Assembly (NCBI GenBank): GCA_031370645.1 | Contig: JANMQV010000059.1 | Location: 1-24,761, forward strand | Length of the DNA: 24,761 nt | Source of the DNA: Candidatus Eiseniibacteriota bacterium | GTDB lineage: Bacteria; Eisenbacteria; RBG-16-71-46; SZUA-252 | Reading direction: 5' to 3' | Shown here: positions 1 to 18,802 of the stretch, piece after piece | Layout: every line of letters starts with the position of its first letter | Position numbering within the stretch: the stretch's first letter is position 1 | The notes under the pieces: model-generated | Database searches by the model: none | Told to the model about the DNA's origin: nothing | Seen by the model: only the letters and a program-made list of their open reading frames with translations | Made by a program: the position numbers and the translations under genes

Positions 1-541
1 CGAAGACATAGAGGACGCGGAAAGTAGCGGTAGGGACGGTGAAGAAGTCGATCGAGGCGATCGCCGTTGCGTGGTTCTTCAGAAACGTCCGCCAGGTCTG
101 GGACGGCGGTCTCCTTTCGCGGGGCATGTACCTCGACACGGTGACTTGGGCCACGTCGAGACCGAGTTTGAGCATCTCTCCGTGGATGCGTGGCGCACCC
201 CAGAGCGGGTTCTCGTGCGCCATGCGCCGGACGAGGTTGCGGATCTCATGAGAGGTGCGCGGCCGTCCCCGGTGTCGACTCTTCCACCTCCAATAGAGGC
301 GGAATCCCTGGCGGTGCCACCGGACGACCGTCTCGGGACGAACGATCGTGAGGGACTTGCGCCAGTCCCTCCAGATGCGGGAAAGAACGACCCAGAAGAG
401 GCGGTCGCGTTTCCTCAGGTGGAACCTGGAACGAAGACGTTGCAGGACATAGAGTTGGTGGTGCAGAGCGAGGTTTTCGAGCACCAGGGCATGTCGGGAT
501 CGGAATATCGACCCGAGCAGGCGTATCATGATTTTGAGCAT
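1..541 (-). CDS. rve/integrase-core-domain DDE transposase (family A), N-terminal 180 aa, runs off the left edge
   Basis: Not in the ORF track because it has no stop in the window. Manual translation from ATG at 541: MLKIMIRLLGSIFRSRHALVLENLALHHQL...DRLFWVVLSRIW...VRPETVVRWHRQGFRLYWRWKSR...ENPLWGAPRIHGEMLKLG...SQTWRTFLKNHA...IDFFTVPTATFRVLYVF. These motifs are typical of this transposase family, and IDFF contains the first catalytic Asp. Confidence 0.92.
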   Translation of the reverse strand, partial: MLKIMIRLLGSIFRSRHALVLENLALHHQLYVLQRLRSRFHLRKRDRLFWVVLSRIWRDWRKSLTIVRPETVVRWHRQGFRLYWRWKSRHRGRPRTSHEIRNLVRRMAHENPLWGAPRIHGEMLKLGLDVAQVTVSRYMPRERRPPSQTWRTFLKNHATAIASIDFFTVPTATFRVLYVF

Positions 542-611
542 CGAACGACGCTACCGGGCAGTGGCGCCAACTGCAAGGATGGCAAGGCGGACGGAATTTT
601 GAGAAGGGACA
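542..611 (-). mobile_element. Left end (IRL region) of the family A element
   Basis: Lies just upstream of the transposase start. The terminus reads TGTCCCTTCTCAAAATTCCGTCCGC on the minus strand (611-587). It recurs at 7402-7424, 7425-7473, 10354-10378 and 12670-12694, and inverted at 1647-1671. Confidence 0.8.
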
Positions 612-671
612 GCTGTCTATTGAGCTTACGAATCGGTGACCGCGAGGCCCGTCCTCGCAATAGGAGGCCGT

Positions 672-1127
672 ATGGTCAAGCGCGCGATCGTTGCGTTCCT
701 CGCTTGTAGCTCGATTCTTCTGGTGTCCCGTGCGTACGCCCAGCCTATGCCGGAATCCCTACTCCGCCTGAAGCCGAGCGCGAACCTGCGCGTTGAAACC
801 ACGTCCCATCAGAAGATCGAGGGCCGGTTTCTCCGGGCCACGGGCGATACGCTCTTCCTGTCCGCTCAGGGAGCTGAAACTGCCGTGCCCTTGCGTGAGC
901 TGCACGGGCTCTGGAAGCGCGGCAGAGCCACCAAGACGGGCGCCATCGTCGTCGGCGCCATAGTGGGCATCGGATTTGGTGTCATTGCCGCGGGGGGAGG
1001 GCTTAATCCAGATACTCGCAGCAATGGCTCTCCCGTGGCCGCGTTCATCGTCGGCGCGGCGGCTGGTTCCCTGGTCGGGGCGCTGATCGGCGCCGCGATT
1101 CCGAAGTGGCACCGCCGCTATCCATGA
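672..1127 (+). CDS. Exported/membrane hypothetical protein with a C-terminal glycine-zipper-like hydrophobic region
   Basis: AGGAGG RBS at 662-667, ATG at 672, signal peptide ending AYA-Q, GxxxG-rich helices (GAIVVGAIVGIGFG; GAAAGSLVGALIGAA). Confidence 0.75.
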   Translation: MVKRAIVAFLACSSILLVSRAYAQPMPESLLRLKPSANLRVETTSHQKIEGRFLRATGDTLFLSAQGAETAVPLRELHGLWKRGRATKTGAIVVGAIVGIGFGVIAAGGGLNPDTRSNGSPVAAFIVGAAAGSLVGALIGAAIPKWHRRYP

Positions 1128-1612
1128 TGCGCGGCTGGTGGGTTGCCGTAGTCTGCCTGGGATTCGGTGTCGTACCAGCGGCCGCTCAGCAGACTGGTTC
1201 CGTGGGTATCCAGGGCGGCCTCAGTACTTCCGGGCCGGCCCTCGCCGGCACGGCAAACCTCCTGGCGGAGTTCGGCTCGTTCGGCATTGGCCCTGAAGTG
1301 GGGGTGTCTGGTCTGGGTGATGGCGCGAAGGCGTGGCACGTCGGGGGCACGTTCGGACTTGGCGCGTCTACTGGAAGGATCCGTCCCCATGGCGCTGTGG
1401 GCGTTGCGCGCTACTCGTGGAACATGTGCGCCGGCTGCGCGTCGCTTGGCTTGCTCGGCATTTCCATCGGCGCGGGCGCGGCGCTGGTCCGTCCACCGTC
1501 CGGGCTATCGCTGGAGACCGAGTTACGGTGGCATCGCCAGCTGCAGAGGGTCGGCGCATCGAAGACGATGAGCTTCGTGACAGTGACGCTCGGACCGACG
1601 TTGCACTGGTGA
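1124..1612 (+). CDS. Putative small outer-membrane beta-barrel protein
   Basis: ATGA overlap with the upstream gene, signal peptide ending AAA-Q, alternating Gly/hydrophobic strands, C-terminal strand VTVTLGPTLHW ending in an aromatic residue. Confidence 0.65.
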   Translation: MMRGWWVAVVCLGFGVVPAAAQQTGSVGIQGGLSTSGPALAGTANLLAEFGSFGIGPEVGVSGLGDGAKAWHVGGTFGLGASTGRIRPHGAVGVARYSWNMCAGCASLGLLGISIGAGAALVRPPSGLSLETELRWHRQLQRVGASKTMSFVTVTLGPTLHW

Positions 1613-1646
1613 GTTGTGGGCGTCGCGCGAGCGTGTCCCGTCTGCC

Positions 1647-1748
1647 TGTCCCTTCTCATAAATCCATCCGCATGCGAAAAGACCTCATCCGGGCCTGATC
1701 AGGGCCCCGAACCGTGGATGTCCTCGGCATCGGGAGCGGAGACTTTTC
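1647..1748 (-). mobile_element. Probable right end (IRR plus subterminal sequence) of the family A element
   Basis: TGTCCCTTCTCATAAATCCATCCGC (1647-1671) is an inverted copy of 587-611. The following 1684-1748 is repeated at 12498-12561, next to another family A relic. Confidence 0.7.
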
Positions 1749-1860
1749 TCCGAATAGTGCGTGGCGAAGTGGAAGGACCGTGGGACATCAGGGCAGACGC
1801 TCGGCACGAAGCTCCGCCCGCTCGGCTCGAAGCTTCTTGCGCTTGACCCGTTCTCGTGGA

Positions 1861-1889
1861 CATCTCCGATCGAGTTTTCGGACACTTCG
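1861..1889 (+). repeat. Family B element right-end motif
   Basis: CATCTCCGATCGAGTTTTCGGACACTTCG; the same motif follows the transposase C-terminus YHRRAA* at 7474-7532 and 9461-9521. Confidence 0.75.
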
Positions 1890-1924
1890 GCCATGGCCGG
1901 CCGTCCACCAGTTGCCGCTGGTAT

Positions 1925-1955
1925 TTGCCACAAAAACAGTCTAGTTTTGTGGCAA
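1925..1955. promoter_or_regulatory. Inverted-repeat operator upstream of abiEi
   Basis: Perfect 11-bp arms TTGCCACAAAA-N9-TTTTGTGGCAA ending 5 bp before the ATG. AbiEi antitoxins are known to autorepress through promoter inverted repeats. Confidence 0.65.
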
Positions 1956-1960
1956 TATCT

Positions 1961-2581
1961 ATGAGCAAGCACCCCGGATCCATCGACAGCCTCGTCCTCC
2001 GGCACATCCGCAAGATGAAGCCGGGCAACATCTTCACGCCTGGTGATCTGGCTAGGCTGGGGCCGCGCACGGCGGTTGCCTCGGCCCTCTCCCGGCATCT
2101 CAAGGCAGGCACGGTGAGGCAGCCGGCGCGCGGCCTCTATCAGGTTCCGGAAACGCATCCCCTCCTGGGAGAACTGGCCGCATCACCGGACCGGATCGCC
2201 AACGCGCTGGCAGGAAAGCATCGCCTCAGGCTTCAGCCATCGGGAGCGTACGCCGCGAATCTGCTCGGCCTGTCCGACCAGGTGCCCCAACGGATTGTCT
2301 ACCTCACGGACGGAACCCCGAGGCAGGTACGGATCGGAAAGCAGCAGATCGTACTTCGTCGCACCACCCCCCGGAACATGGCAACAGCGGGCCGCATCAG
2401 CGGCCTGGTCATTCAGGCATTGCGACACCTCGGCCGGCGCAACGTGGACCGGACGGTGATCGAGAAACTGCGGAAGCGGATCGGCCCCAGGGAGCGCGCC
2501 CAACTGCTCGCGGACGCGCCACTGGCGCCGGCGTGGATCAGTGAGCTGATGCGCGAGATCGCCCGCGGGACTAGGCGCTAG
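1961..2581 (+). CDS. abiEi: Type IV TA antitoxin, AbiEi-like (DUF6088 family)
   Basis: N-terminal wHTH (FTPGDL...ALSRHLKAGTVRQPARGLY) and SGAYAANLLGLSDQVP...YLTDG motif; directly upstream of AbiEii. Confidence 0.88.
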   Translation: MSKHPGSIDSLVLRHIRKMKPGNIFTPGDLARLGPRTAVASALSRHLKAGTVRQPARGLYQVPETHPLLGELAASPDRIANALAGKHRLRLQPSGAYAANLLGLSDQVPQRIVYLTDGTPRQVRIGKQQIVLRRTTPRNMATAGRISGLVIQALRHLGRRNVDRTVIEKLRKRIGPRERAQLLADAPLAPAWISELMREIARGTRR

Positions 2582-3607
2582 GTGAACCGGTTTCTGCTGC
2601 TCTCGCCCCACGATCGCGCGCGGGCATTCGAACAGGCTGCGGCAAGCCGCGGACTATCACCCGGGAGCGTGGAGAAGGACTTCTGGGTCTGCCTCATGCT
2701 CCGGGAACTGTTCACCCTGCCGGAACATGGTGAGCACCTCACGTTCAAGGGTGGGACCTCACTCTCCAAGGCATGGGGACTCATCGACCGCTTCTCCGAA
2801 GACCTCGATCTGACGATCGGGCGAGACACCCTGGGCTTTGGCGGCGACGACGGACCGGAAGCGGCAGGCAGCGGGAACGAGCAACGCCGACGGATTGAAG
2901 GGCTCAAGCAGGCCTGCCGGGACGTGGTTGCCCAACGGATCATGCCTGCACTAACCGCGCGAATGAGGGCGCTGCTTGCCCCGCATGAGTCCTGGAGCAT
3001 CACTTCCGATGACGAAGACCCCGATGCCCAGACATTACTATTCGGCTACCCGCGACTCGGGGCGACGACGACACCTTCCTATGTGAACCCGCTCGTGAAG
3101 CTCGAATTCGGCGCTCGATCCGATCCCTGGCCGGTCGAGGCGCGCCAGGTGACGCCCATCGTTGCCGAGGAATTTCCGCGGTTGTTCGACTCCCCCGCAT
3201 GCACAGTTCGAGCGCTGCTGCCCGAACGCACTTTCTGGGAGAAGGTCATGCTGCTCCACGAGGAAAGGTTCCGACCGGCGGGCAGGGCGCGACGGCCGCG
3301 GATTGCCCGTCACTACTACGACGTCTGGCGGCTAATCGAAGCAGGGGTCGCTGCGAGAGCCACCGCCGATCTGACGCTCTTCAAACAAGTCGCGGCGCAT
3401 CGCAGGGTGTACTTCCGGCAGGGTTGGGTGGACTACACCACGCTGAAGCGCGGAACGATCCAGATGCTGCCGCCGCCGGAACAGGTCGAGGAATGGCACC
3501 GGGACTATTCCGCCATGCAAGGGGATATGTTTGTCGGCCCCGCCCCGGGATTCGAGGAGATCCTGGCGAAGATCACGATCTTCCAATCGGAGTTCAATTC
3601 GGCATGA
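2582..3607 (+). CDS. abiEii: Type IV TA toxin, AbiEii/AbiGii nucleotidyltransferase
   Basis: VEKDFWV, FKGGTSLSKAWGLIDRFSEDLDL, ERTFWEK and RHYYD motifs; GTG start abuts the abiEi stop. Confidence 0.92.
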   Translation: MNRFLLLSPHDRARAFEQAAASRGLSPGSVEKDFWVCLMLRELFTLPEHGEHLTFKGGTSLSKAWGLIDRFSEDLDLTIGRDTLGFGGDDGPEAAGSGNEQRRRIEGLKQACRDVVAQRIMPALTARMRALLAPHESWSITSDDEDPDAQTLLFGYPRLGATTTPSYVNPLVKLEFGARSDPWPVEARQVTPIVAEEFPRLFDSPACTVRALLPERTFWEKVMLLHEERFRPAGRARRPRIARHYYDVWRLIEAGVAARATADLTLFKQVAAHRRVYFRQGWVDYTTLKRGTIQMLPPPEQVEEWHRDYSAMQGDMFVGPAPGFEEILAKITIFQSEFNSA

Positions 3608-3702: not shown

Positions 3703-3818
3703 GAGTTCGAACAGGGTTACGTTTGGGGAGCCAGATGACGAATCGCGAACTTTCGGGTTCGCGTTGATACGCGGGACCCTGGGGGCGAAAGCCGCTGGGG
3801 TCTTGGCGTATGTGGGCC
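3703..3818 (+). repeat. Structured repeat C, copy 1 (tRNA-like 3' end plus two hairpins)
   Basis: GAGTTCGAACAGGGTTACGTTTGGGGAGCCA, hairpin CGCGAAC-TTTCGG-GTTCGCG (3744-3763), long hairpin with GAAA loop (3769-3809). Homologous to 8247-8362 and 18181-18290. Confidence 0.85.
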
Positions 3819-3842
3819 GGGATCGAATTACCTATCCTACAG

Positions 3843-3995
3843 CTACTGGGGCCGTTGATGGTCGCCCTTGGCGCGCCACTTGAGGATCGTGGCTCGCACC
3901 CGCTCCGCCATCCGTACCTTCTCCGACCAGGAGAGATCCTTCCGCGCTTTCTGCCAGAGTGCTTGTCGCTTCAACAGGTCGTGCGTATCACTCAT
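3843..3995 (-). CDS. Small (50 aa) partner of the upstream nucleotidyltransferase
   Basis: MSDTHDLLKRQALWQKARKDLSWSEKVRMAERVRATILKWRAKGDHQRPQ. Its ATG overlaps the stop of 3992-4498 (ATGA), and its 3' end is duplicated at 13649-13728. Confidence 0.65.
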   Translation of the reverse strand: MSDTHDLLKRQALWQKARKDLSWSEKVRMAERVRATILKWRAKGDHQRPQ

Positions 3996-4498
3996 GTTAG
4001 AAACCTGCTTTCGAAGCGCTGCCACGCCTCCGCGAGTCCATGCCGCGCGGCGAGGGCGGCGATGTCTTCTCGGGTGATGCTGCCGGCCTCCAGCAACGCC
4101 ACGATGCGAGTGTAGTCCTTGGCGCGTCCCACACTCAGGGCGATGACCGCCAGGTATTCCGCGCGGACCACTCGGAGAGGCACGCCTTCGAAGTCGGCGG
4201 TGTCGGCATGATCGACCGCCTCTTGGGTAAGTGGGCTGAATATCGGCACGAATTGGGTCGGCCACGCACCCACCTGGACGGCCTCCCCTTCCGGGCGCCA
4301 TCCGCGCGCAGCACAAAACTCGTAGATGTCGCTGAGTACATCAAGTCGCTCCGTATCAGGCACGGAGACGAGGACGTCGGCATCCAGTGTCGCGACCGGT
4401 TCCGTGTACCGCATTTGTGCGACCGCTCCGAACAATGCATACTCCTGGATCACTCCAGCCTGCCGCATTTCGTTGAGCAGCTGAGCCAGTTCCTTCAT
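3992..4498 (-). CDS. Pol-beta superfamily nucleotidyltransferase-like protein
   Basis: YALFGAVA...EPVATLDADVLV (G-x-x-A...T-x-D-x-D) and C-terminal GRAKD motif. Confidence 0.8.
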   Translation of the reverse strand: MKELAQLLNEMRQAGVIQEYALFGAVAQMRYTEPVATLDADVLVSVPDTERLDVLSDIYEFCAARGWRPEGEAVQVGAWPTQFVPIFSPLTQEAVDHADTADFEGVPLRVVRAEYLAVIALSVGRAKDYTRIVALLEAGSITREDIAALAARHGLAEAWQRFESRFLT

Positions 4499-4633
4499 GG
4501 GAGCAGCCTACCCAAAGTGAAGGGCGTCACCTTGCGGACATTGGCGGAAGGGAGCATGACGCAGGAGTCTAACTGCCCGGGAGCCGCCTGTCAGCACTCA
4601 GGGTGAGGGCACTGAACATCAGCACTACAACGT

Positions 4634-4655
4634 GATCTAGTCTTCGGACACTTCG
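4634..4655 (+). repeat. Family B element right-end motif (degenerate)
   Basis: GATCTAGTCTTCGGACACTTCG, ending 2 bp from the kinase stop codon. Confidence 0.6.
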
Positions 4656-4657
4656 CG

Positions 4658-7183
4658 CTAGAAGAGTCCCTCCACAACATACAAATCATTCAGTCGCTGC
4701 GAGTAGGAGTAGGCGTAGCCCTGCTCATCGTCCGTCATGCGGATGCCGGTCAACCCTTCGACGCCGGTCGCGTCGGACGGGCTTAGCTCTCTCCAAAGCT
4801 TTCGCTCCCCGGTCGCCAGGTCGATGCGATGAACTTTGGAAGGCAGCTCGCCGCGCGTGAAGGCGAAGACGGCAGAGCCGTCCTTGCTCCAACGAATGGG
4901 GCGATCGTTGAGGGCGAAGCCCTTGAGCGGAACGGGAGTGCCGCCCCCGACGGGGAAGAGCAGCATGGTCAGATCGGGTCCGCGCGCCGCGGCAAACTGC
5001 CCGTCGGGGGAAACCAATAGGTCGGTCGAGCTGATCCCACCCTCCGTGAATGGCTCGCACTTCCCGGTAACGGAATCAACTTTGTAGAGCCGCGTCCCGA
5101 GATCGGGCTCCTGCCCCATCACGCAAAGCGTTTCTCCATCGGGGAACCAGACCGCGTGGTGCACGTCGAGCCTCTCGAGAGGAATTGTCCGCGCCGTTCC
5201 GGCACCGCAAGGAAGCAGGTCGAGCCGCGTAGGCGCGTATCCCACGCCGGCGAGCGCCCACTGACCATCTGGCGAGAGGGCAAAGCAGGCGCCGTCGCCC
5301 AGACGGATCGCGGGCGACCCGTCGGTGCCGCGCAGGTAGATTGAGTGATGCTCGCCGCCCCCGACGCCCGTTTCGTCGAATAGAATCCGCGAGCCATCGG
5401 GGGAAAGCGCACGGACGAGCGTCCAGTCGAGCCACGTCAAGTCGTGCGTGGCGGCTTCGCCGTGCAAATATTGCGTCCGGGCCCGCTCGTTCTCGAGGAT
5501 GACCAAGGCGGCGCCCTGACGCGAGACGTCGAACAGGGTCATATGGCCGGGTACTTCGAGAATCGGGCGTTCTTGTCCGGATAGGGAGACCGCGTAGAGA
5601 GACCTGCCGACGCCTGTCTTGAACGCGGTGAAGACGATCTCGTCTCCCTCGGGAGACCACGCCAGTCCGCGTGCGCTCTGCCAGCCGGTGGAGAGCTTCG
5701 TGACCACGCCCTCCGTATCGACCACTGTCGCCGTGCCCATGTCGTCGCCGCGGGTCGGATGATCGAGGAACGCGACGCGCTTTCCGTCGCGCGAGACACG
5801 CATGTGGCTCACCCAACCGGTCGTCTGGTAGAGGAGGGTCCCCATGGGGTACTCGACGCGAGTCAAGCCCGCTTCCTCGCGCGATACGGCGAGATGGCGC
5901 CCATCGGGGCTCCAGTCGGCTTCGTAAACGTCGTTGAGAAGTTCGCGGGGCGCGCCACCGCCTACCGGCATTCTCGCGAGCATCCCGGTATAGAGGAATC
6001 CGCCGCGAGCGTGGCGGCGAAGCGAGACCGCCATCTCGCCGGTGAGCGAAATCGCGAGGAGGTCGGTCTTGGGATATCCGAGCGCTCGTGACTCCGGATT
6101 TCCTGGATAGGCCCAAAAGAGTTCCACGTTCCGGCCTTCCCAAGCGGCCCCGTAACAGACGCCTTGGCCGTCGGGCGCGAAACGGGCTGAGAGGATGGAG
6201 CCTTCGCGGTAGGTCGTGCGGCGAAACGTGTGTCGGCGGGAACTCGGAATGAGAGCCGCCCCCTCGGTCGTCGCGCTCTCCGCGGTTGTGCCGACCCCGC
6301 GTTGTCCCGCCGTCGCCGCAGACCGCACCATGGAGAGGGAGAACGCGAGGTCGTTCGCCGAATCGAAGCGGTCGTCGGCGCGCTTTTCGAGGCAATGCGC
6401 GAGTACCGCCGAGACACCCGGAAGCGCTCCCTCGATCTCCGCGGAGAGCGCCTTCGGATCCGCCATCAGAATGGCGCTCATCCGGTCGGCATGGCTTTCG
6501 CCTTCGAACGCGCGTCGACCGGTCAGCATCTCGTAGAACATGGAACCGAGGGCGAAGAGGTCCGTGCGATGGTCGACCGGCAGCTCCCGAATCTGCTCGG
6601 GCGACATGTACGAGGCGGTGCCGAGAATCATACCGGTGGCCGTGAGCTGCGTCTGGATTGGCCCCGTCTTGTCGCGATCGGAGGGACCAGGTTCCCCGAC
6701 CAGGATCTTGGCGAGTCCGAAATCGAGAATCTTCACGTGGTCGCCGCTCACGATCATGACGTTCTCGGGCTTCAAGTCGCGATGGGCGATCCCCTTCGCG
6801 TGCGCGGCGGCGAGTCCCTTGGCAATTTGGATCGCATACCCCAGCGCCCGACGGGGCAGGAGGGGCCCGGCTGTGATCGGAGCGCGGAGGTCTTCGCCGG
6901 CTAGGAGCTCGGAGACGATGTAGGGGATGTCTCCTTCGGTGCCGACGTCATAGATGGCGATGATGTTCGGGTGGCTCAGCTGCCCCGCGGCGCGCGCCTC
7001 GCGCTGAAAGCGTTTTAGGCGGTCGGGATCCGAGACGAACGTGCGGGGGAGGACTTTGACGGCCACATCCCGCCCCAGCCGCCCGTCGCGAGCGCGATAG
7101 ACTTCGCCCATGCCGCCGGCGCCGAGGAGACCCTGTATTTCATAGGGGCCGAGCCGGGTGCCGGGGGCGAGGGCGGGGCTCAT
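4658..7183 (-). CDS. Hanks-type Ser/Thr protein kinase with C-terminal TolB-like/PD40 beta-propeller repeats
   Basis: GAGGMGEVY, VAVK, HRDLKPEN, DFG and YMSPEQ motifs, followed by repeated (W/L)SPDG motifs. Confidence 0.95.
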   Translation of the reverse strand: MSPALAPGTRLGPYEIQGLLGAGGMGEVYRARDGRLGRDVAVKVLPRTFVSDPDRLKRFQREARAAGQLSHPNIIAIYDVGTEGDIPYIVSELLAGEDLRAPITAGPLLPRRALGYAIQIAKGLAAAHAKGIAHRDLKPENVMIVSGDHVKILDFGLAKILVGEPGPSDRDKTGPIQTQLTATGMILGTASYMSPEQIRELPVDHRTDLFALGSMFYEMLTGRRAFEGESHADRMSAILMADPKALSAEIEGALPGVSAVLAHCLEKRADDRFDSANDLAFSLSMVRSAATAGQRGVGTTAESATTEGAALIPSSRRHTFRRTTYREGSILSARFAPDGQGVCYGAAWEGRNVELFWAYPGNPESRALGYPKTDLLAISLTGEMAVSLRRHARGGFLYTGMLARMPVGGGAPRELLNDVYEADWSPDGRHLAVSREEAGLTRVEYPMGTLLYQTTGWVSHMRVSRDGKRVAFLDHPTRGDDMGTATVVDTEGVVTKLSTGWQSARGLAWSPEGDEIVFTAFKTGVGRSLYAVSLSGQERPILEVPGHMTLFDVSRQGAALVILENERARTQYLHGEAATHDLTWLDWTLVRALSPDGSRILFDETGVGGGEHHSIYLRGTDGSPAIRLGDGACFALSPDGQWALAGVGYAPTRLDLLPCGAGTARTIPLERLDVHHAVWFPDGETLCVMGQEPDLGTRLYKVDSVTGKCEPFTEGGISSTDLLVSPDGQFAAARGPDLTMLLFPVGGGTPVPLKGFALNDRPIRWSKDGSAVFAFTRGELPSKVHRIDLATGERKLWRELSPSDATGVEGLTGIRMTDDEQGYAYSYSQRLNDLYVVEGLF

Positions 7184-10182: not shown

Positions 10183-10184
10183 CT

Positions 10185-11776: not shown

Positions 11777-11796
11777 GCGACGCCTGACGAAAGGCT

Positions 11797-12694: not shown

Positions 12695-12697
12695 GAG

Positions 12698-13639: not shown

Positions 13640-13648
13640 CGCGCCGCC

Positions 13649-13743: not shown

Positions 13744-15027
13744 CTATTCGCAGACCGGCCCGATTCCTCGACCGTTATTGATGGCCGTCAGCGCGGCATT
13801 GAGCCTCGCATAATTCCCGCGGTTGGCCTTGAGCGTGCGGTCCGTCACAACGATTAGATCCCGTAAGGTAGCCGCGGTGCGGAAGTCGACTCGTGTGTCG
13901 GGATCGAGCCCGATGCTTTCACTACCTTGGAACCCGACGTTCAACTCGCCGGCCGCGACGTTGGCCATTAGCGCCGCGAATTGCCGCACGACTTGCTTGC
14001 GGCGGGTCAGTCCGACGGGATTGAGCGCCTGGCGGAGGCCATCCAAATCATTGGTCCAGTTGAAGTACGTGGACCGCTCGTCGACGCGCTGGGCGATCGC
14101 CCGAAGATCGGCCTGGGTGAGGCCGTTCATGTCCCCGCCCGGTTGGCCGTTTCCAAATGCCCGCCGCCAAAACTGCAGCGTGCGCGGGCAGTTGTCCCAA
14201 ACGACCTCTTCCGGATCTTGGTTATCCCCCGTGCCGTCGTCCGCGAGCGATAGAATTTGACTGCAGGTTTCGGTGCGCCCGGAGGTTTGGTCCCGCAGCC
14301 TGAGGGTGTAGTTCCCGGGCGCATCCGCCGTAATACAGCGCGCGGAGCCCGTAAAGCCATTCGGTCCGGTCCAGAGGTAGGAGGTGCCGCTCCGGGATGG
14401 CGCGCACAGCTGCACGGAGGCGCCTTCGGATATGGTCGTTGGACCCGTGATGTCGCAGTTCCCATTGGACTGCCCCGTTACCGCCAGGTGATGTGTGCAC
14501 TGCCGGGTACTTCGGGTGATCGGATTGCGGCTTGTCAGGTAGTAGGTCCCTTCTTCCTCCACGGTGATGCAAGCGCTCGTCGCCGTGTAGCCGTTCGGCC
14601 CGGTCCACCGATAGCTGTGGAGTCCGTCGTTCGGAGCGCAGAGCCGGGCGCTCGTCCCAACCGGAATCGATTGCGGTCCGCTGATGGTGCACGATCCGTT
14701 GCCGCCCGTGCTTCCACCTGCGTTCACGACCTTCGTGCAGCGCCCCACCTCGGCGTAATTTAGTTTGAGAACAAGAACAAATTCGTACGTGCCGGCGTTT
14801 GCAAGCCTTGCGGTGACGCACCGCGCTTCACTCTGCGTACCAAGGCCCGGACCATACCACTCATACATGTAATCGCCACTCGTTGGACCGCACAAGGTGA
14901 AGGACTCGTTGATCCCGACATCTGCCGGTCCCGCGATTGTGCAGGAGGGTTGCGCCGAACTCGGGGACGCCGCCAAGAGACTCGCGACCGCGGCCAACAA
15001 CCAAAAGCGTAGAGCGTGCCTTTTCAT
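13744..15027 (-). CDS. Secreted protein with three Cys-containing Ig/PKD-like repeats and a helical C-terminal domain
   Basis: GGAGG RBS, signal peptide, three copies of C.I.GP......S..LC.P....Y.W.GP......C.T....G.Y. Confidence 0.8.
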   Translation of the reverse strand: MKRHALRFWLLAAVASLLAASPSSAQPSCTIAGPADVGINESFTLCGPTSGDYMYEWYGPGLGTQSEARCVTARLANAGTYEFVLVLKLNYAEVGRCTKVVNAGGSTGGNGSCTISGPQSIPVGTSARLCAPNDGLHSYRWTGPNGYTATSACITVEEEGTYYLTSRNPITRSTRQCTHHLAVTGQSNGNCDITGPTTISEGASVQLCAPSRSGTSYLWTGPNGFTGSARCITADAPGNYTLRLRDQTSGRTETCSQILSLADDGTGDNQDPEEVVWDNCPRTLQFWRRAFGNGQPGGDMNGLTQADLRAIAQRVDERSTYFNWTNDLDGLRQALNPVGLTRRKQVVRQFAALMANVAAGELNVGFQGSESIGLDPDTRVDFRTAATLRDLIVVTDRTLKANRGNYARLNAALTAINNGRGIGPVCE

Positions 15028-15274
15028 ATGCCCTCCAGGGGGTCAAAATCGTGGTAGGTCGCGTTTCATCGAACGGAACGTTTCTTTCGTGTGTGGGGTG
15101 GCTTCATCGCCGTGTCGAAAGCGGGCTAAGCCAGTTTCATGCCATGCGGAGCGACAATCGCGTGCCCCCGGCAAGGTGTTGCAGACATGCCGATTTGCGT
15201 GCGACTCAGCCAGGCGGACGCGTCCAAGGGTCGTGGCCGGAGCGGTGTTCCGAAGGAAGAAATTACATTAGATG

Positions 15275-15356
15275 ATCGAGGAGAACCGCGTCCTCAAGAA
15301 ACAGCTCGAGGCTCGCGGAAAGTCGTCTGCGCTTCACCGATGATCAGCTTCGTCGG
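15275..15356 (+). pseudogene. Family B transposase N-terminal scrap
   Basis: IEENRVLKKQLEARGK, a 1-nt frameshift, then RLRFTDDQLRR; homologous to 18462-18540. Confidence 0.8.
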
Positions 15357-15449
15357 TGGACGTCCTCAGAAAGGGCATTGGGTGGACGCGGATCTCTTAC
15401 CGGAATCGTGCGCATTCATCTCGAAGCATGCTCATCTCAGATCGACGGG

Positions 15450-16184
15450 CTAGAACTCGGACTCGATGGCCACCCGGCCGACGAGAGGGACGTCCGCGGA
15501 TCCGAGTCCAATCCCCATACCCAGCTTGAAGGTGATTTCGTGCGGGAACGCGAACCAGAGCTGCGGGAACAGCGTGGCGCTCTTCTGTGCCGGGAACTGC
15601 TTGAATTCAGCGCCCACTCGTAGAAACCCCTCCGCGGGGTATCGAGCGCCGATCGCGTAGCGAAACTGAACGGCTGGATCGGGCGCGACTGTGACGGGCA
15701 GATCCAAGTTCAGGGTTGTGTTGAACGCCGTGGAGAGATCTCGGGATACGACAAGTCGCGGGGTGAGCACCTGCTCTCGCTCTCCCTCGGTGGCGCGAGC
15801 GGTCTCGAGCTCGTATTCCAGGGAAGCTGCAAGGTCCAGCGGTCCCTGGCCCTCCTCCGCGAAGCGATAGCGGGTCTCCGCCCTAAATCGTCCGAATCCC
15901 AGGCCCGACGGATCCTGCACCCACTGGGCCGCTCCGTCGATCGTCCAATGCGACGTGGCACCGTATTCGAAAGCCCCCGTGTACCACTGGCGTGGATGCC
16001 GATCGCTGCCCGCGTGAATCTCTCCCCAGAGTTCGATCTCTCGCTCGCCGCGGCCCAGGGTCTGATAGACAAATGTTTCGTCGATGTAATCGTCTCGGTG
16101 GGCGAAGGCGCGGGGTGTGGATCCAAGGGTCGCTGCCATGAGCAGCAGCCAAACTCGGATGGCGACTGTTCGGAGCGTTTGCAC
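15450..16184 (-). CDS. Putative outer-membrane beta-barrel / transporter-like protein
   Basis: Signal peptide ending AFA-H, amphipathic strands, C-terminal Phe (IESEF). The start is estimated (GTG at 16184); the ORF-track extension to 16466 overlaps an unrelated fragment on the other strand. Confidence 0.7.
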   Translation of the reverse strand: MQTLRTVAIRVWLLLMAATLGSTPRAFAHRDDYIDETFVYQTLGRGEREIELWGEIHAGSDRHPRQWYTGAFEYGATSHWTIDGAAQWVQDPSGLGFGRFRAETRYRFAEEGQGPLDLAASLEYELETARATEGEREQVLTPRLVVSRDLSTAFNTTLNLDLPVTVAPDPAVQFRYAIGARYPAEGFLRVGAEFKQFPAQKSATLFPQLWFAFPHEITFKLGMGIGLGSADVPLVGRVAIESEF

Positions 16185-16251
16185 CGCATCATCGTCACAC
16201 GCTCTGAATCGCGACGTAAAGTTTTTCGTCACTCGGGTGGGTGTACGCGGG

Positions 16252-16407
16252 TACCTCCGAGCGATGGCGGATCTGGGACCGGGACCGCATCGATCGGGAG
16301 ACATCGCCGAAAAACTGGGGCGCGCGGTGACTGCGCTCGGCCCCACCAGAAATAAGCTGATAGCCAAGGGAATGATCTGGAGCCCCAACCACGGCGACAC
16401 CGCATAG
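16252..16407 (+). pseudogene. C-terminal wHTH fragment of an AAA-ATPase-type protein
   Basis: YLRAMADLGPGPHRSGDIAEKLGRAVTALGPTRNKLIAKGMIWSPNHGDTA* resembles, from recall, the conserved C-terminus of AAA_16-like ATP-binding proteins. No N-terminus is present. Confidence 0.65.
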
Positions 16408-16997
16408 GCGGGAGTCGGCCAGGCGAGTACCGGCCCTACCAAGATAGAGGGGACCAATGGGCCCATGGACTCACCCGGGCTGCGAGGAAGATTCTGGCAG
16501 TATGGAGACGAGGACGGTGTACCCTTGGCGTACGGGGGAAGGCCAGATCGCTGACGTTCCTACAACGAAAGCTCTGTGGTTTGAAGTACCCGGCGTGACT
16601 CTTGAACTTCTTTCCTTCCGGCCGATGGTTGCCCTCGATCAGCCGCCACGCGCGGCGACGAGAAACGGTGCTAACGGACGTACCCACAGGGGCCTATCGA
16701 GGGCCACGAAACTTCCTCCGACGCATGGCACCGTTCCTGCCTTGCTCTCGAGTGGGTAACGGAATTCGTCGGAGACGGCGGTGCCGGCTTCTTCGCCGTG
16801 TGTGGGCAATGTGACGTACTGCTCCATAGCTCATGCAAGCCACGAGTCGCCGAATCCACCAATCCCGGCGGGCCTCAGGACAACTCTCCGGTCCAGCCAC
16901 TGGCGTGCGGCGCCATTCACCTCGACAAGCCCACTCCACCGTTGCAGGGCAATACGCACGCGACGCACCACTAACGGCACAACAGGAGGATTTCCCG

Positions 16998-18044
16998 ATG
17001 CATCCCCGGACAAACAACTTCGCAGCGTGGCCACTGGTAGTACTGCTGGTCGCGATGGCTGGATGTAGCTCCGACAACCCCACCGGGCCCGGAGTCGACA
17101 CCGTCGCACCGACAGTGAGTTCCACTAACCCCGTCAATGGCGCCACAGGCGTGGCGATCATTACGGCATCGTTCAGTGAGGCGATGAACGCCTCGACGAT
17201 CACGACGACCACCTTCACCGTGAGCGGACCCGGCGCAACTCCCGTGATCGGGACCGTCGCCTACAATGCGTCGACCCACATTTCGAGATTCACGCCCACG
17301 AGTGCCCTCGCGGCCAACACGGCATATACCGCGACGATCACGACCGGGGCCAAGGATCTCGTCGGCAATGCGCTCGCGAGCCCCCATGTGTGGAGCTTCA
17401 CGACGTCGGCGACGTCCAGCAATCAGGCGCCAGTGGTTCTCGGCGGGGCTGGGCCTTTCGCGGTTCTGGCCGGTTCGACGGTCACCAACACGGGTGCAAC
17501 CGCTCTGACGGGAGATCTGGGCGTGAGCCCGGGAAGCGCGGTGACTGGCTTTCCGCCGGGAACGCTGACCGGTACGAAGCACGTTGCCGATCCCACTTCA
17601 GCGCAGGCCAAGCTCGATCTGACCACGGCGTATAACGACGCGGCTGGACGAACGCTGGCACCCGTCACCGTCGCCGGGAATCTCGGCGGCTTGACTCTGC
17701 CACCCGGCCTCTACAAATCCACGTCCTCGCTCATGGTCTCCTCAGGCGATCTGACGCTCGACGCCCAGGGCAACCCGAATGCTGTCTTCATTTTTCAAAT
17801 GGCATCAACACTTACCACGACATCTGGCCGAGCAGTGATCCTGAGCGGTGGCGCCAAGGCTTCAAACGTCTTCTGGCAGGTGGGCAGCTCGGCGACGCTT
17901 GGAACGACGTCCGCATTCAAGGGCACCATCATGGCAGATCAGGCTATCACTTTGAAAACCGGGGCGAGGCTGGATGGCAGGGCACTGACACGGATCGGCG
18001 GGGTTGCGCTGGCCGGCAATACCGTCGTAGTGCCCGCCCCGTAG
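16998..18044 (+). CDS. Lipoprotein with an SbsA-type Ig-like domain and an ice-binding-like DUF3494 domain
   Basis: AGGAGG RBS, lipobox MAGC, DTVAPTVSSTNP...FSEAMN...KDLVGNAL (Big_5), FAVLAGSTVTNTG, GDLGVSPG, LPPGLY, VFIFQ, NVFWQVGSSATLGT. Confidence 0.92.
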   Translation: MHPRTNNFAAWPLVVLLVAMAGCSSDNPTGPGVDTVAPTVSSTNPVNGATGVAIITASFSEAMNASTITTTTFTVSGPGATPVIGTVAYNASTHISRFTPTSALAANTAYTATITTGAKDLVGNALASPHVWSFTTSATSSNQAPVVLGGAGPFAVLAGSTVTNTGATALTGDLGVSPGSAVTGFPPGTLTGTKHVADPTSAQAKLDLTTAYNDAAGRTLAPVTVAGNLGGLTLPPGLYKSTSSLMVSSGDLTLDAQGNPNAVFIFQMASTLTTTSGRAVILSGGAKASNVFWQVGSSATLGTTSAFKGTIMADQAITLKTGARLDGRALTRIGGVALAGNTVVVPAP

Positions 18045-18056
18045 AGTTTCGAAGAC

Positions 18057-18081
18057 CGGCGGCGAAGGAGTTTCGCCGCCG
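18057..18081 (+). terminator. Hairpin downstream of the DUF3494 gene
   Basis: CGGCGGCGAA-GGAGT-TTCGCCGCCG, with no U tract. A second 12-bp inverted repeat follows at 18093-18104/18132-18143. Confidence 0.45.
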
Positions 18082-18180
18082 CGGGATCACGTCGCGCACC
18101 TCCAACCGGTGGAAGTCGAATCACGCCGGCATGGAGGTGCGCGCTCAGGAGTGTTCGTCACTCATCCCTCAGGTGTCTAG

Positions 18181-18290
18181 CGAATCGGGGGTACCCTCGG
18201 GGAGCCAGATCACGAATCGCGAACTTTCGCGTTCGCGTAGAGACGCGGGACCCTGGCGGCGAAAGCTGCTGGGGTCTTGGCGTTAAGGGG
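18181..18290 (+). repeat. Structured repeat C, copy 3
   Basis: CTCGGGGAGCCA (18196-18207), hairpins at 18218-18237 and 18243-18283. Confidence 0.85.
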
Positions 18291-18314
18291 CGTGGTTTGG
18301 GGCCTCGCGACGCC

Positions 18315-18802
18315 CGTAGTATCCGAAAAATCGAGTCCGCTGTAGTGCTGCGCGTTACCCCCGTCGGATACGCTCCCCGGATGATCGAACTACAGCTACT
18401 TCTGGGAACCTTTGCTGCCTGGTCCAACCGTCGCCGGGGAGCCGTGATCACGTATTTCGTTGAGGAGAACCGCGTCCTCAAGGAACAGCTCCAGTCGGGA
18501 GGGAGGCGCCTCCGCTTCTCCGATGACCAGCGGCGGCGCCTCGCCGCAAAGGGCAGGCCATTGGGCCTCAAAGCGTTGAGGCAGATCGCGACGGTCGTGA
18601 CGCCGGAGGCAATCTTGGCGTGGCACCGACGGCTCATCGCGGCCAAGTGGACATATCCGCGGCGCCGAACGAGCCGCCCCGGAGCCATCAGGGGCTCGGG
18701 AACGAGATCGTAAGCGGGGCTCCAGTACAGCGAGAGGGCGTGATCGAGGCGAGCGAGCGGCTCGGGGGCTTGCTGAAGTATTATCACCGGCGCGCGGCGT
18801 GA
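18315..18802 (+). mobile_element. Family B element relic: left end plus transposase lacking its catalytic core
   Basis: CGTAGTATCCGAAAAATCGA; ATG at 18381 gives MIELQLLL...EENRVLKEQL...RLRFSDDQRRRLAAKG...VTPEAILAWHRRLIAAKW...RPG, joined out of frame near 18682 to SHQGLGNE...ERLGGLLKYYHRRAA*. Confidence 0.88.

What the first reader, a model, noticed from the sequence alone, without database searches (positions are those of the whole stretch)
1..18802. Candidate integron-like cassette array built on the ends of rve/DDE elements, next to an apparently open transposase ORF
Seen in the sequence: roughly a dozen unrelated 1-2 gene modules, most separated by termini or deleted relics of two related DDE elements. 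Family A pieces: 542-611, 1647-1748, 7402-7424, 7425-7473, 10185-10378, 12498-12694. Family B pieces: 1861-1889, 4634-4655, 7474-7532, 7532-7555, 9461-9521, 10124-10182, 12698-12765, 13525-13639, 15275-15356, 18315-18802. None interrupts an otherwise intact gene. Ends survive while transposase interiors are lost, and genes sit tight against the ends (kinase stop 2 bp from 4655, nucleotidyltransferase stop 12 bp from 7555, ATG 27 bp after 10378). The cargo (TA pairs, lipoproteins, OMPs) resembles integron cargo, but I found no intI or attC. Inference: a DDE 'integrase' captures and stacks cassettes using its own ends as recombination sites. I do not know of a described system like this, but I cannot search to confirm.
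Basis: partly seen in the sequence, partly recalled or inferred. Interest (0 to 1): 0.9.

Follow-up and report, generated by a model that had tools for sequence, protein, structure and literature searches.

The report
Decayed insertion-sequence stack beside tRNA-Asn hotspot
The repeats are real leftovers of two related jumping-gene families piled up, all facing the same way, in a gene-swapping hot spot that probably lies next to an asparagine-tRNA gene; known jumping-gene behaviour explains this better than a new integron-like gene-capture machine.

Summary
The window, a whole contig of an Eisenbacteria MAG, carries 6 relics of IS family A (about 1.32 kb) and 10 of family B (about 1.16 kb). 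Both are unclassified IS3/IS481-like rve elements. The relics lie between about 11 small cargo modules. They are strongly clustered: 6 of 11 A-end hits and 9 of 14 B-end hits in the genome fall in 0.8% of it. They are also orientation-locked: all A point '-', and 9 of 10 B point '+'.

In relatives the same array lies directly downstream of tRNA-Asn.

The junctions show IS ends landing 23-70 bp inside the ends of resident copies, which leaves tandem stubs. No intact B transposase is assembled in this genome. Contigs from four metagenome runs show the same fixed order and no joints at IS ends.

Same-orientation clusters of these IS families also occur in Planctomycetota and other phyla.

The best reading is a decayed tRNA-linked variable region colonised by end-targeting IS elements, as known for IS30 and IS911, and then eroded by deletions. 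An integron-like DDE cassette system is not supported. IS26-like stacking cannot be excluded.

The scan has noted tRNA-anchored cassette arrays before, on other DNA.

The parts
1..611 (-). IS family A copy a1: left inverted repeat (terminus at 611) and the first 180 codons of the transposase (ATG at 541). It is cut by the contig end and may be an intact copy.
   Evidence: 87% identical to G002:C109 863-1474. HTH_32/HTH_21. Terminal repeat with 1 mismatch.
612..1646 (+). Module M1: two small secreted-looking ORFs of unknown family (636-1127, 1106-1612).
   Evidence: No Pfam or NCBIfam hit. Signal-peptide-like N-termini. The end of the first ORF is 71% identical to an ORF beside the full B copy in G002.
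1645..1845 (-). A relic a2: right inverted repeat (terminus at 1647) plus about 200 bp of the transposase 3' end.
1859..1889 (+). B stub b1: last 30 bp of B, with its terminus at 1889. An ATG of the AbiEi gene follows within a few bases.
1890..3607 (+). Module M2: AbiEi-like (DUF6088/AbiEi_4) and AbiEii toxin-antitoxin / abortive-infection pair.
   Evidence: Pfam E 2e-40 and 2e-42. No DNA match in the 8 genomes of the genus.
3703..3901 (+). C repeat, copy C1, the longest uninterrupted copy. It has a 27-nt head, then GGAGCCA, then a copy of the tRNA-Asn 3' flank with two hairpins.
   Evidence: 96% identical to the true flank of tRNA-Asn in G002:C317.
4040..4606 (+). Module M3: ORF of unknown family. 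It is contiguous with C1 in G002 as well.
   Evidence: Window 3708-4510 is 86% identical to G002:C265 9401-10168.
4627..4655 (+). B stub b2: last about 30 bp of B, terminus at 4655.
4658..7183 (-). Module M4: Ser/Thr protein kinase with a beta-propeller (PD40/WD40) domain.
   Evidence: Pfam Pkinase 1.7e-45. Full-length homologues at 78% and 74% in G006:C39 and G004:C82, with no IS or C motifs nearby.
7372..7555 (.). Stack of five stubs: C head (7372-7399), A left-end stubs a3 (7400-7424) and a4 (7425-7473), B right-end stubs b3 (7474-7532) and b4 (7534-7555). Each terminus points right.
   Evidence: Sequence read directly..
7568..8050 (-). Module M5: small ORF, weakly nucleotidyltransferase-like.
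   Evidence: Only a sub-threshold Pfam hit (E 0.0077).
8247..8420 (+). C repeat copy C2 (8247-8362), followed by a degenerate A left-end relic (about 8370-8420, minus orientation).
   Evidence: The same C-then-A-end order is seen in G003:C326. The A relic in the window was read by eye only.
8626..9329 (+). Module M6: Gp49/HigB-like toxin and HTH antitoxin pair.
   Evidence: Pfam. Window 8586-9199 is 85% identical to G003:C326, again next to a C repeat.
9340..9521 (+). B relic b5: clear 3' end at 9462-9521 (terminus at 9521). Possible degenerate 5' part at 9340-9380. Bases 9365-9463 are absent from contigs of 3 of the 4 runs laid.
9576..10061 (+). Module M7: lipoprotein.
   Evidence: Lipobox-like N-terminus. 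93% identical to G002:C109 1516-2035. There it lies between a full A copy and a B copy.
10124..10379 (.). B left-end stub b6 (10124-10184, '+'), then A relic a5 (10185-10379, '-', internal deletion, terminus at 10378).
10406..12345 (.). Module M8: lipoprotein-like ORF (10406-11332, +), DUF305 (11316-11669, +), DUF4440/SnoaL-like (11797-12345, -).
12495..12764 (.). A relic a6 (12495-12695, '-', terminus at 12694), directly abutting B 3' stub b7 (12699-12764, '+').
12839..13456 (+). Module M9: secreted ORF of unknown family.
13525..13728 (+). B relic b8 (fragments plus right end, terminus at 13639), directly followed by the distal half of the C repeat (13643-13728).
13744..15027 (-). Module M10: 427-aa secreted protein of unknown family.
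   Evidence: 86% identical to G002:C299 7210-8513. There it lies about 100 bp from an A piece.
15270..15394 (+). B relic b9: an internal fragment only (B positions about 150-270).
15450..18044 (.). Module M11: 338-aa ORF (15450-16466, -) and a Big_5 / ice-binding-like secreted protein (16833-18044, +).
   Evidence: Paralogues elsewhere in the genome and genus.
18177..18292 (+). C repeat copy C3.
   Evidence: The same C-then-B order is seen in G003:C172.
18312..18803 (+). B relic b10: left end and codons 1-104 joined to codons 306-352, so it has an internal deletion. The right inverted repeat is missing.
   Evidence: 94% and 85% identical to the full B copy of G002.
18817..24761 (+). Conserved block: HEAT-repeat/TLC-like membrane protein, hybrid histidine kinase, response regulator-SpoIIE. 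It is shared with G002 at 95% from exactly this point onward. In G002 it is again followed by C and B-end relics.

Best explanation
Bases 1-18.8 kb are an old, hypervariable accessory region that probably lies just downstream of a tRNA-Asn gene. It has been colonised repeatedly by two related copy-out/paste-in-type insertion sequences, A and B. These are IS3/IS481-like single-ORF rve transposase elements.

The two IS families tend to insert, in a fixed orientation, close to the ends of copies already present, and into the repeated copies of the tRNA-Asn 3' flank (C). Each such nested insertion, or the end-initiated deletion that goes with it, leaves the resident element's terminal 23-70 bp as a stub. 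Ordinary deletions then removed most transposase interiors. Only events that spared useful or addictive cargo survived: toxin-antitoxin pairs, AbiE and secreted proteins.

The result looks like a cassette array but is a decayed IS stack in an integration hot spot.

Shown here: the relics, their clustering, their orientation, the stub-on-stub junctions, the tRNA-Asn linkage in relatives, the variable content among relatives, the stability of the array in the population, and the same habit in distant phyla.

Inferred: that end-targeted insertion, as in IS30 and IS911, is the cause of the orientation lock. Also inferred: that C repeats mark former site-specific integrations, and that the window itself abuts tRNA-Asn.
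For: 1. The references are ordinary IS elements.
- A: 1.32 kb, 337-aa transposase with rve_3, TGT...ACA inverted repeats.
- B: 1.16 kb, 352-aa transposase, CGTAGTATCCGAAAA inverted repeats.

2. Nested junctions were read directly.
- The A left terminus abuts B at two different positions, B 1114 (7473/7474) and about B 1100 (12695/12699). These are therefore at least two separate events in the same orientation.
- There are tandem same-side stubs: a3|a4 and b3|b4.
- G002:C109 has a tandem double B left end.
- A Planctomycetota locus has three tandem stubs of a third IS end, and a B end abutting an A stub.

3. Orientation and retained ends.
- 6 of 6 A relics are '-'.
- 9 of 10 B relics are '+'. 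The tenth is a bare repeat that cannot be assigned.
- 4 of 4 C copies are '+'.
- 12 of 15 retained termini are right-hand ends.

4. The same habit occurs elsewhere. Counting neighbouring same-family copies in loci outside the genus, 13 comparisons were concordant and 1 was discordant. The loci were L107, L109, L110, L111, L124, G025:C3, G027:C279 and G030:C13.

5. tRNA-Asn linkage.
- G002:C109 reads tRNA-Asn, then flank, then a full A copy (87% identical to the window's left end), then the lipoprotein, then B.
- In the complete genome G018, tRNA-Asn lies at 2,894,430-2,894,504.
- Eight C copies on the same strand lie within the 89 kb downstream of it, by a scan limited to the 99 kb fetched there.
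- Genome-wide, 4 of 4 strict C hits in G018 fall in that region.
- So do all three B relics, 4 of 7 Phage_integrase hits and the genome's only resolvase-family hit.

6. Decay.
- Relics are 69-90% identical to one another.
- No full B transposase is found in the assembly, which is 95% complete.

7. Variable content. No genus-level DNA match was listed for M1, M2, M5, M8, M9 or 15450-16466 (15 weaker rows were not listed).

8. Stability. Contigs from 4 of 4 runs, from 2 studies, bridge nearly all junctions in the same order. The only well-supported structural variant is a 99-bp indel at 9365-9463.

9. Precedent. IR-targeting by IS30 gives 'exclusively IRL-IRR junctions', and the authors consider it probably similar to IS911 targeted transposition (passages read in PMC9333248; PMC7986276).
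Against: - tRNA-Asn is not assembled in this genome, so the linkage is by analogy with G002 and G018.
- No island-type integrase lies in the window.
- The first segment after tRNA-Asn in G018 has no recombinase among the 9 ORFs scanned.
- The tyrosine-recombinase hits in the G018 array are short frames of 77-210 aa.
- The head of C differs from the real tRNA 3' end, so C is not a simple displaced tRNA end.
- Only 4 of the 15 termini abut another IS stub. The other stub edges need ordinary deletions.
- Target-site duplications could not be shown. A possible 4-bp GGCT flanks the full B copy of G002, and none flanks the two G018 mini-B copies.
- The A-antiparallel-to-B rule is not universal. It is parallel in L118, in G030:C109 and in one of two cases in G030:C13.
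- End-targeting by these transposases has not been tested.
- Breakpoints at IS ends are equally expected if IS-plus-cargo units were moved as blocks.
Confidence: 0.6

Rival explanations
1. IS26- or IS30-like stacking. Units made of one IS copy plus adjacent cargo were inserted next to resident copies. This could happen by a targeted, orientation-specific transposase reaction, or by homologous recombination between copies. It would build a direct-repeat array of IS-cargo-IS-cargo whose IS interiors later decayed.
For: - Three modules are flanked by the outer ends of same-family copies in direct orientation. M1 lies between a1 and a2, M7 between b5 and b6, and M8 between a5 and a6.
- The lipoprotein-then-B-left-end junction is shared by G000 and G002, while the left neighbour differs.
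- Homology breakpoints lie near IS ends in 4 of 6 comparisons.
- Same-family co-orientation recurs across phyla.
- The mechanism is documented for IS26 and IS30 (PMC4196232 listing and abstract; PMC9333248 passages).
Against: - Copies within one array are only 66-87% identical, both here and in the Planctomycetota locus. That fits poorly with reactions that need matching ends or homology.
- No module was found with the same pair of flanking ends in two contexts.
- No circular or excised form appears in four runs. Only contigs were available, and contigs drop rare forms.
- A and B are not IS6-family elements.
Confidence: 0.15
2. The true cassette joints are the C repeats. A site-specific recombinase stacked small integrase-less modules at tRNA-Asn, as in other tRNA-anchored arrays. 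The IS relics are incidental later arrivals.
For: - C copies share a sharp 5' edge and one orientation.
- They recur 0.9-31 kb apart downstream of tRNA-Asn in G018, and they occur in G002, G003 and G007.
- C+M3 and C+toxin-antitoxin travel together in two genomes each.
- The only large serine recombinase of G018 lies inside its array.
- The scan has earlier notes of similar arrays on other DNA. Those are leads only.
Against: - There are only 4-5 C pieces for about 11 modules in the window.
- No recombinase of either class is in the window, and no resolvase-family hit is in G000 or G002.
- No recombinase was linked to C.
- C does not explain the 16 IS relics or their stub-on-stub junctions.
Confidence: 0.2
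3. A new integron-like system. A DDE 'integrase' at the array's edge captures and excises individual cassettes, using the retained IS ends as attC-like sites.
For: - Clustering, uniform orientation, ends kept while interiors are lost, and genes packed against the ends.
- A transposase ORF lies at the array's left edge.
Against: - The edge ORF belongs to a standard two-ended IS copy.
- B ends outnumber A ends, yet no B transposase is found in the assembly.
- The stubs are same-side ends in direct orientation.
- Stub lengths and sequences vary, and some relics lack the terminus (b9, b10).
- The cargo reads on both strands.
- No excision or re-ordering is seen in four runs.
Confidence: 0.04
4. 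Assembly artefact: a chimeric MAG contig stitched together at repeats.
For: The genome is fragmented into 247 contigs, and the contig ends inside an IS copy.
Against: Independent contigs from 4 runs, from 2 studies, bridge 529-2012, 1644-3767, 3753-7121, 7098-10587, 11629-12641, 12612-16905 and 18254-20000 with 0-11 differences each.
Confidence: 0.01

Closest known systems
IR-targeted insertion of copy-out/paste-in IS elements: IS30 'IR-targeting' and IS911 targeted transposition (PMC9333248 passages read; PMC7986276 passages and reference list read)
   Same: - DDE/rve-type transposases.
- New copies land beside or just inside the ends of resident copies, with strict orientation specificity.
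- The products are head-to-tail arrangements, followed by cascades of deletions that start at IS ends.
   Different: - Here the evidence is only the fossil pattern of stubs 23-70 bp from the termini and of co-oriented clusters.
- The families are different and unclassified. They score below the NCBIfam cut-offs for IS3 and IS481.
- Targeting appears to cross between two families that are only 32% identical.
- No experiment exists for these elements.
IS26 translocatable units and IS26-interspersed resistance regions (PMC4196232, PMC4676283: titles and abstracts seen)
   Same: Arrays of small cargo segments interspersed with directly oriented copies of one IS, built by a transposase reaction aimed at a resident copy.
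   Different: - IS26 belongs to the IS6 family.
- Its arrays keep full, near-identical copies, and their cargo is resistance genes on plasmids.
- Here the copies are diverged, mostly reduced to one end, and chromosomal.
tRNA-linked genomic islands and tandem island arrays (recalled: Williams 2002 on tRNA sublocations; asn-tRNA islands of enterobacteria; Islander)
   Same: - A variable region downstream of a tRNA gene.
- Direct repeats copying the tRNA 3' end region, in the tRNA's orientation.
- Content differs between close relatives, and recombinase genes lie in the fuller array of G018.
   Different: - The repeat carries about 95 nt of flank beyond the tRNA, and its 27-nt head is not tRNA sequence.
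- No integrase lies in the window.
- Modules are as small as 0.9 kb.
MITEs and mobile insertion cassettes (MICs; mentioned in PMC2266710 and PMC3129680, search listings only)
   Same: Internally deleted IS derivatives that keep the ends. G018 has 616-bp and 472-bp B derivatives with both inverted repeats. The window's b10 keeps the left end and both gene tips.
   Different: - No window relic keeps both termini.
- The B left end at 10124 and the B right end at 12764 bracket M8, but with no target duplication and with A relics inside.
Integrons
   Same: One-way oriented repeats between 1-2-gene modules. The cargo is rich in toxin-antitoxin pairs and small secreted proteins.
   Different: - No IntI-type tyrosine recombinase.
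- The repeats are transposon termini and tRNA-flank copies, not attC hairpins.
- Cargo orientation is mixed.

Membership tests
Integron | IntI-type tyrosine recombinase gene beside the array | tested here: not met
   PF00589 gives 2 hits in the whole genome, both on contig C68. None is in the window. The window's ORFs scanned with Pfam show none.
Integron | attC sites (imperfect palindromes with conserved R/L boxes) at the 3' end of each cassette | not tested
   No attC model was available. The inter-module repeats are instead accounted for as IS termini and tRNA-flank copies. Rfam found nothing.
IS3/IS481-type insertion sequences (rve DDE transposase) | Transposase with an rve catalytic core and an N-terminal HTH | tested here: met
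   rve_3 plus HTH_32/HTH_21 in both full-length references. Candidate D, D and E residues are visible in both sequences by eye (printout). This is a reading, not an alignment test.
IS3/IS481-type insertion sequences (rve DDE transposase) | Score above the curated family cut-off (IS3 NF033516, IS481 NF033577) | tested here: not met
   A scores 83 bits against a cut-off of 160, and 74 against 224. B scores 85 against 160, and 88 against 224. Relatives on plasmids are annotated only as 'integrase core domain-containing protein'. The elements therefore belong to the superfamily but not to either named family.
IS3/IS481-type insertion sequences (rve DDE transposase) | Terminal inverted repeats bounding a 1-1.5 kb element | tested here: met
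   A is 1.32 kb and B is 1.16 kb, each with matching ends.
IS3/IS481-type insertion sequences (rve DDE transposase) | Short target-site duplication | tested here: inconclusive
   A possible GGCT flanks the full B copy in G002. None flanks two mini-B copies in G018 or the full A copy in G002:C109.
IS26-type translocatable-unit arrays | IS6-family transposase | tested here: not met
   The best NCBIfam hits are IS3 and IS481, with no IS6 hit.
IS26-type translocatable-unit arrays | Directly oriented copies of one IS interspersed with cargo segments | tested here: met
   6 of 6 A relics and 9 of 10 B relics are co-oriented, with cargo between them.
IS26-type translocatable-unit arrays | Full-length, near-identical IS copies able to react | tested here: not met
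   The relics are truncated and 69-90% identical to one another.
tRNA-linked genomic island array | tRNA gene at one end of the region | tested here: inconclusive
   There is no tRNA in the window, and no tRNA-Asn in the assembly. In G002:C109 the homologous A copy follows tRNA-Asn. In G018 the array follows tRNA-Asn.
tRNA-linked genomic island array | Direct repeats copying the tRNA 3' end region, in the tRNA's orientation | tested here: met
   C copies share GGAGCCA and about 95 nt of flank with the true tRNA-Asn locus, and all lie on one strand. The 27-nt head of C is not tRNA sequence.
tRNA-linked genomic island array | Integrase gene(s) in the array | tested here: not met
   None is in the window. 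In G018 the array holds the genome's only resolvase-family hit, with a 551-aa open frame, and 4 short tyrosine-recombinase frames.
tRNA-linked genomic island array | Content differs between close relatives while the flank is conserved | tested here: met
   The window is 95% identical to G002:C265 from 18817 onward. To the left, only scattered modules are shared.
MITE / mobile insertion cassette | Both inverted repeats retained around a short or passenger-only interior, with a target duplication | tested here: not met
   No window relic has both termini. The pair 10124...12764 has no duplication. G018 has two-ended mini-B copies without a visible duplication.

The most novel reading that the evidence does not exclude
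A and B belong to a widespread, unnamed clade of single-ORF rve insertion sequences. These elements home in a fixed orientation on the ends of resident relatives, even across families, and on tRNA-flank repeats. By doing so they assemble and remodel one-way arrays of small cargo modules in several uncultured phyla. That would be a natural, chromosomal counterpart of IS26/IS30-type targeted stacking, and the window would be a fossil of such an array.
Probability: 0.15. Interest if true: 0.55.

Novelty: new member of a known kind. Interest (0 to 1): 0.3.

Why it matters
The finding shows how a striking 'cassette array' can arise without a dedicated capture system. A tRNA-linked hot spot, IS elements that land on each other's ends, and deletions are enough.

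The useful residue is twofold:
- Two unclassified IS3/IS481-like IS families from Eisenbacteria now have defined ends. One of them is spread across several phyla.
- There is a clean natural signature of end-targeted, orientation-locked insertion: tandem same-side stubs, and same-family co-orientation in 13 of 14 neighbour comparisons outside the genus.

If end-targeting were confirmed at the bench, it would extend behaviour known from IS30, IS911 and IS26 to environmental lineages. It would also help annotators tell IS-end stacks from integrons.

Tried and rejected
- Rfam found nothing in the whole window at gathering thresholds, or on 3600-4000 at E<=1. ARAGORN found no tRNA in the window or in the small contigs that carry relics.
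- I first read C as a plain displaced tRNA 3' end. I rejected that because its 27-nt head does not match tRNA-Asn and cannot form a T-arm.
- I tested whether C is the tail of a recombinase gene, a lead from earlier scan notes. No recombinase lies next to the first C copy in G018 among the 9 ORFs scanned. The G018 integrase-like proteins have no real match in the window: one 17-residue hit at E 0.001.
- The rve contig C115 turned out to be a different, IS3-type orfA/orfB element whose end merely resembles A's.
- The search for target duplications was inconclusive.
- Joints in the laid contigs other than the 99-bp skip have only 20-33 letters on one side, and none lies at an IS terminus. I treated them as noise from paralogues or other organisms. 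Parts without a listed long contig piece (10588-11628, 16906-18253) say nothing.
- The Bradyrhizobium plasmid context of an A relative is an ordinary IS-rich region and added nothing.
- A look-up of earlier findings by sequence returned nothing.
- No structure prediction, complex prediction or large protein-database search was run. They would not bear on the question.
- Supplementary files of papers were not consulted.

Full report
**What the window is**

The window is the whole of contig C186 of a 3.0-Mb, 247-contig, 95%-complete assembly. The sequence to the left of base 1 therefore cannot be recovered from this contig. Earlier notes of this scan call the genome Candidatus Eisenbacteria. The record title of the same-genus contig that matches G002:C265 says the same. 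GC content is 61-69%. Rfam and ARAGORN find no RNA genes in the window.

**The repeats are real and are IS relics**

A same-genus genome supplies intact references.
- G002:C109 148-1473 is a 1.32-kb element, A. It has TGTCCCTTCTCA... inverted repeats and a 337-aa transposase.
- G002:C265 4535-5694 is a 1.16-kb element, B. It has CGTAGTATCCGAAAA... inverted repeats and a 352-aa transposase.
- Both proteins carry HTH_32/HTH_21 and rve_3.
- Both score below the curated cut-offs of the IS3 and IS481 models.
- They are 32.5% identical to each other.
- Plasmid-borne relatives are annotated only as 'integrase core domain-containing protein'.

The ORF at the left edge is the first 180 codons of an A transposase on the minus strand. 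It starts at 541 and reads off the contig.

**Clustering**

A fuzzy scan of the whole assembly gave these counts.
- A end: 11 hits, 6 in the window.
- B end: 14 hits, 9 in the window. One of the nine is probably chance, and one true end was missed.
- Reversed-pattern controls: no hits.

The window is 0.83% of the assembly. The other hits lie on the last 4.5 kb of C210 and on the small contigs C9, C115 and C137. No full B transposase is assembled. For A, only the window's N-terminal half and a C-terminal 75-aa piece at the edge of C9 are present.

1. There is a third repeat family, C. It lies at 3703-3901, 8247-8362 and 18177-18292, with a head-only piece at 7372-7399 and a tail-only piece at 13643-13728.
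   - In G002:C109 the contig starts inside a tRNA-Asn(GTT) gene, followed by its flank and then a full A copy.
   - In G002:C317 the tRNA is followed by 93 nt that are 96% identical to C1.
   - C is thus a 27-nt head (TTCGAACAGGGTTACGTTTGG...), then GGAGCCA, then a copy of the tRNA-Asn 3' flank.
   - The two hairpins of the flank are conserved.
   - Rfam has no match.
2. Orientation is uniform.
   - 6 of 6 A relics are '-'.
   - 9 of 10 B relics are '+'. The tenth, b4, is a bare repeat that cannot be assigned.
   - 4 of 4 C copies are '+'.
3. 12 of the 15 surviving termini are the right-hand end of their element: the A left repeat and the B right repeat. Only 3 are left-hand ends, at 1647, 10124 and 18315.

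**Junction anatomy**

At 7372-7555 five stubs are stacked: C head, a3 (23 bp), a4 (49 bp), b3 (59 bp) and b4 (about 22-30 bp). Each stub ends in a true terminus that is joined 23-60 bp inside the right end of the next one.

At 12695/12699 an A terminus again abuts the B 3' end, but about 13 bp from the position used at 7473/7474. These are therefore separate events in the same orientation.

G002:C109 has a tandem double B left end. Both families also sit beside C at about the same point.
- B follows C at 18292/18312, and in G003:C172 and G002:C1.
- The B right end precedes the C tail at 13639/13643.
- A follows the true tRNA flank in G002:C109, and follows C in G003:C326 and, by eye, at about 8370 in the window.

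The remaining stub edges join non-IS DNA and need ordinary deletions.

**Relatives**

From 18817 onward the window is 95% identical to G002:C265 from 16173 onward. Immediately to the left, the window has a B relic and G002 has an A relic.

Shared modules sit in different contexts.
- The lipoprotein, with the B left end to its right, is shared with G002:C109. There its left neighbour is a full A copy.
- C1+M3 is shared with G002:C265.
- C2+toxin-antitoxin is shared with G003:C326.
- M10 is shared with G002:C299, next to an A piece.
- The kinase has full-length homologues in G006 and G004, with no IS or C motifs within 14-15 kb.

No genus match was listed for M1, AbiE, M5, M8, M9 or 15450-16466. 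In that search 15 weaker rows were not shown.

In G002:C1 the conserved right-hand block is again followed by C and B-end relics, so the array probably extends beyond the window.

**The complete genome G018 (same family)**

- tRNA-Asn lies at 2,894,430-2,894,504 on the minus strand.
- Eight C copies, all on the minus strand, lie within the 89 kb downstream (a scan of the 99 kb fetched).
- All 4 strict genome-wide C hits fall there.
- So do all three B relics. Two of these are 616-bp and 472-bp derivatives with both inverted repeats.
- So do 4 of 7 Phage_integrase hits, all short frames.
- So does the genome's only resolvase-family hit, with a 551-aa open frame.
- The first segment after the tRNA carries a LuxR-type regulator, a CARDB protein and methyltransferases, but no recombinase.

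**Population data**

Eleven runs from three studies hold part of the window. I laid the Logan contigs of four runs from two studies.
- They reproduce the order of relics and modules with 0-11 differences per piece.
- They bridge 529-2012, 1644-3767, 3753-7121, 7098-10587, 11629-12641, 12612-16905 and 18254-20000.
- The only well-supported structural variant is the absence of 9365-9463 in 3 of the 4 runs.
- The other joints have 20-33 letters on one side, and none is at an IS terminus.
- Contigs cannot show rare forms.

The mosaic is therefore not an assembly artefact, and it is not visibly being reshuffled.

**Generality**

B relatives at 40-88% identity occur in 30 loci of MAGs. Their records are titled Eisenbacteria, Latescibacterota, Krumholzibacteriota, Planctomycetota, Actinomycetes, Acidobacteriota and others.

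I counted neighbouring same-family copies in the loci outside the window's genus that hold two or more copies. I left out single-copy loci. I also left out G018 and G036, which agree with the pattern.

| Locus | Copies | Comparisons |
|---|---|---|
| L107 | 3 B | 2 concordant |
| L109 | 2 B, 3 A | 3 concordant |
| L110 | 2 B | 1 concordant |
| L111 | 2 B | 1 concordant |
| L124 | 2 B | 1 concordant |
| G025:C3 | 4 A | 3 concordant |
| G027:C279 | 3 A-like | 2 concordant |
| G030:C13 | 2 A-like | 1 discordant |

The total is 13 concordant and 1 discordant.

The A-antiparallel-to-B rule is less general.
- It holds in the window, G002, G036, L109 and L113.
- It fails in L118, in G030:C109 and in one of two cases in G030:C13.

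In the Planctomycetota locus L109, full-length A and B copies lie 1.7-2.6 kb apart. A B right end abuts an A stub there, and a third IS end occurs as three tandem stubs. The copies in that array are only 66-87% identical to one another. Its spacers hold unrelated genes.

**Interpretation**

The pattern matches what is described for copy-out/paste-in elements.
[quoted passage not shown] It then triggers deletions that start at IS ends. The authors consider this probably similar to IS911 targeted transposition (PMC9333248, passages).
- The IS6 review describes IS911 and IS26 targeted reactions, and it cites a left/right end bias for IS911. I saw that citation in the reference list only (PMC7986276).

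I therefore read the window as a tRNA-Asn-linked variable region colonised by end-targeting IS elements and then eroded by deletion. The survivors are toxin-antitoxin and Abi pairs and secreted proteins. That the IS elements target resident ends is an inference from fossil junctions and has not been shown.

A block-wise IS-plus-cargo contribution of the IS26/IS30 kind remains possible. So does a role for C as a recombination site.

**Novelty**

This is a known kind of feature: an IS-rich, tRNA-linked plasticity zone with nested IS insertions. The IS families themselves are new and unclassified. The one-way stub stacks, and their recurrence across phyla, are the only part likely to interest a specialist.

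Noticed in passing
window 21869-22608: A 381-bp tandem duplication at 98% identity inside the hybrid histidine kinase gene duplicates a PAS domain. The G002 ortholog contig ends in this repeat.
   Followed up: no
window 3727-3830; L004 60-140; G018 tRNA-Asn flank: The 3' flank of tRNA-Asn carries two hairpins conserved across genera. A few pairs change on both sides and stay paired. Rfam has no match. Their role (terminator, processing signal or recombination site) is open.
   Followed up: partly
window 9365-9463: A 99-bp AT-rich stretch is present in this contig but skipped in contigs of 3 of the 4 metagenome runs laid. Its right edge is 2 bp from the start of B stub b5.
   Followed up: partly
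G018:C1 2876767-2877225: The only resolvase-family gene of this complete genome (551-aa open frame, large serine recombinase size) lies inside the tRNA-Asn array, on the strand opposite to the tRNA. Its attachment site was not sought.
   Followed up: no
L109 6183-6209, 9518-9623, 16931-16957, 11294-11334, 20892-20913: A third inverted-repeat family (TGACGTACACCAAAACTCGTCGG-like) in a Planctomycetota locus. It includes three tandem same-side stubs within 105 bp, placed just upstream of B left ends.
   Followed up: no
G000:C115 1-1513: A separate IS3-type element (orfB of 311 aa with rve) makes up a 1.5-kb contig. One of its ends resembles the A terminal repeat, with 3 mismatches in 25.
   Followed up: partly
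window 6300-7180 and many contigs of all 8 genus genomes: The kinase domain of the 841-aa Ser/Thr kinase has dozens of paralogous DNA matches per genome at 65-80% identity. This points to a large kinase family expansion in the genus.
   Followed up: no
G018:C1 2833954-2834538, 2862878-2863507: Two similar short (195-210 aa) tyrosine-recombinase-like frames, consisting of the catalytic domain only, recur inside the G018 array. Two further fragments lie at 2842195 and 2843767.
   Followed up: partly
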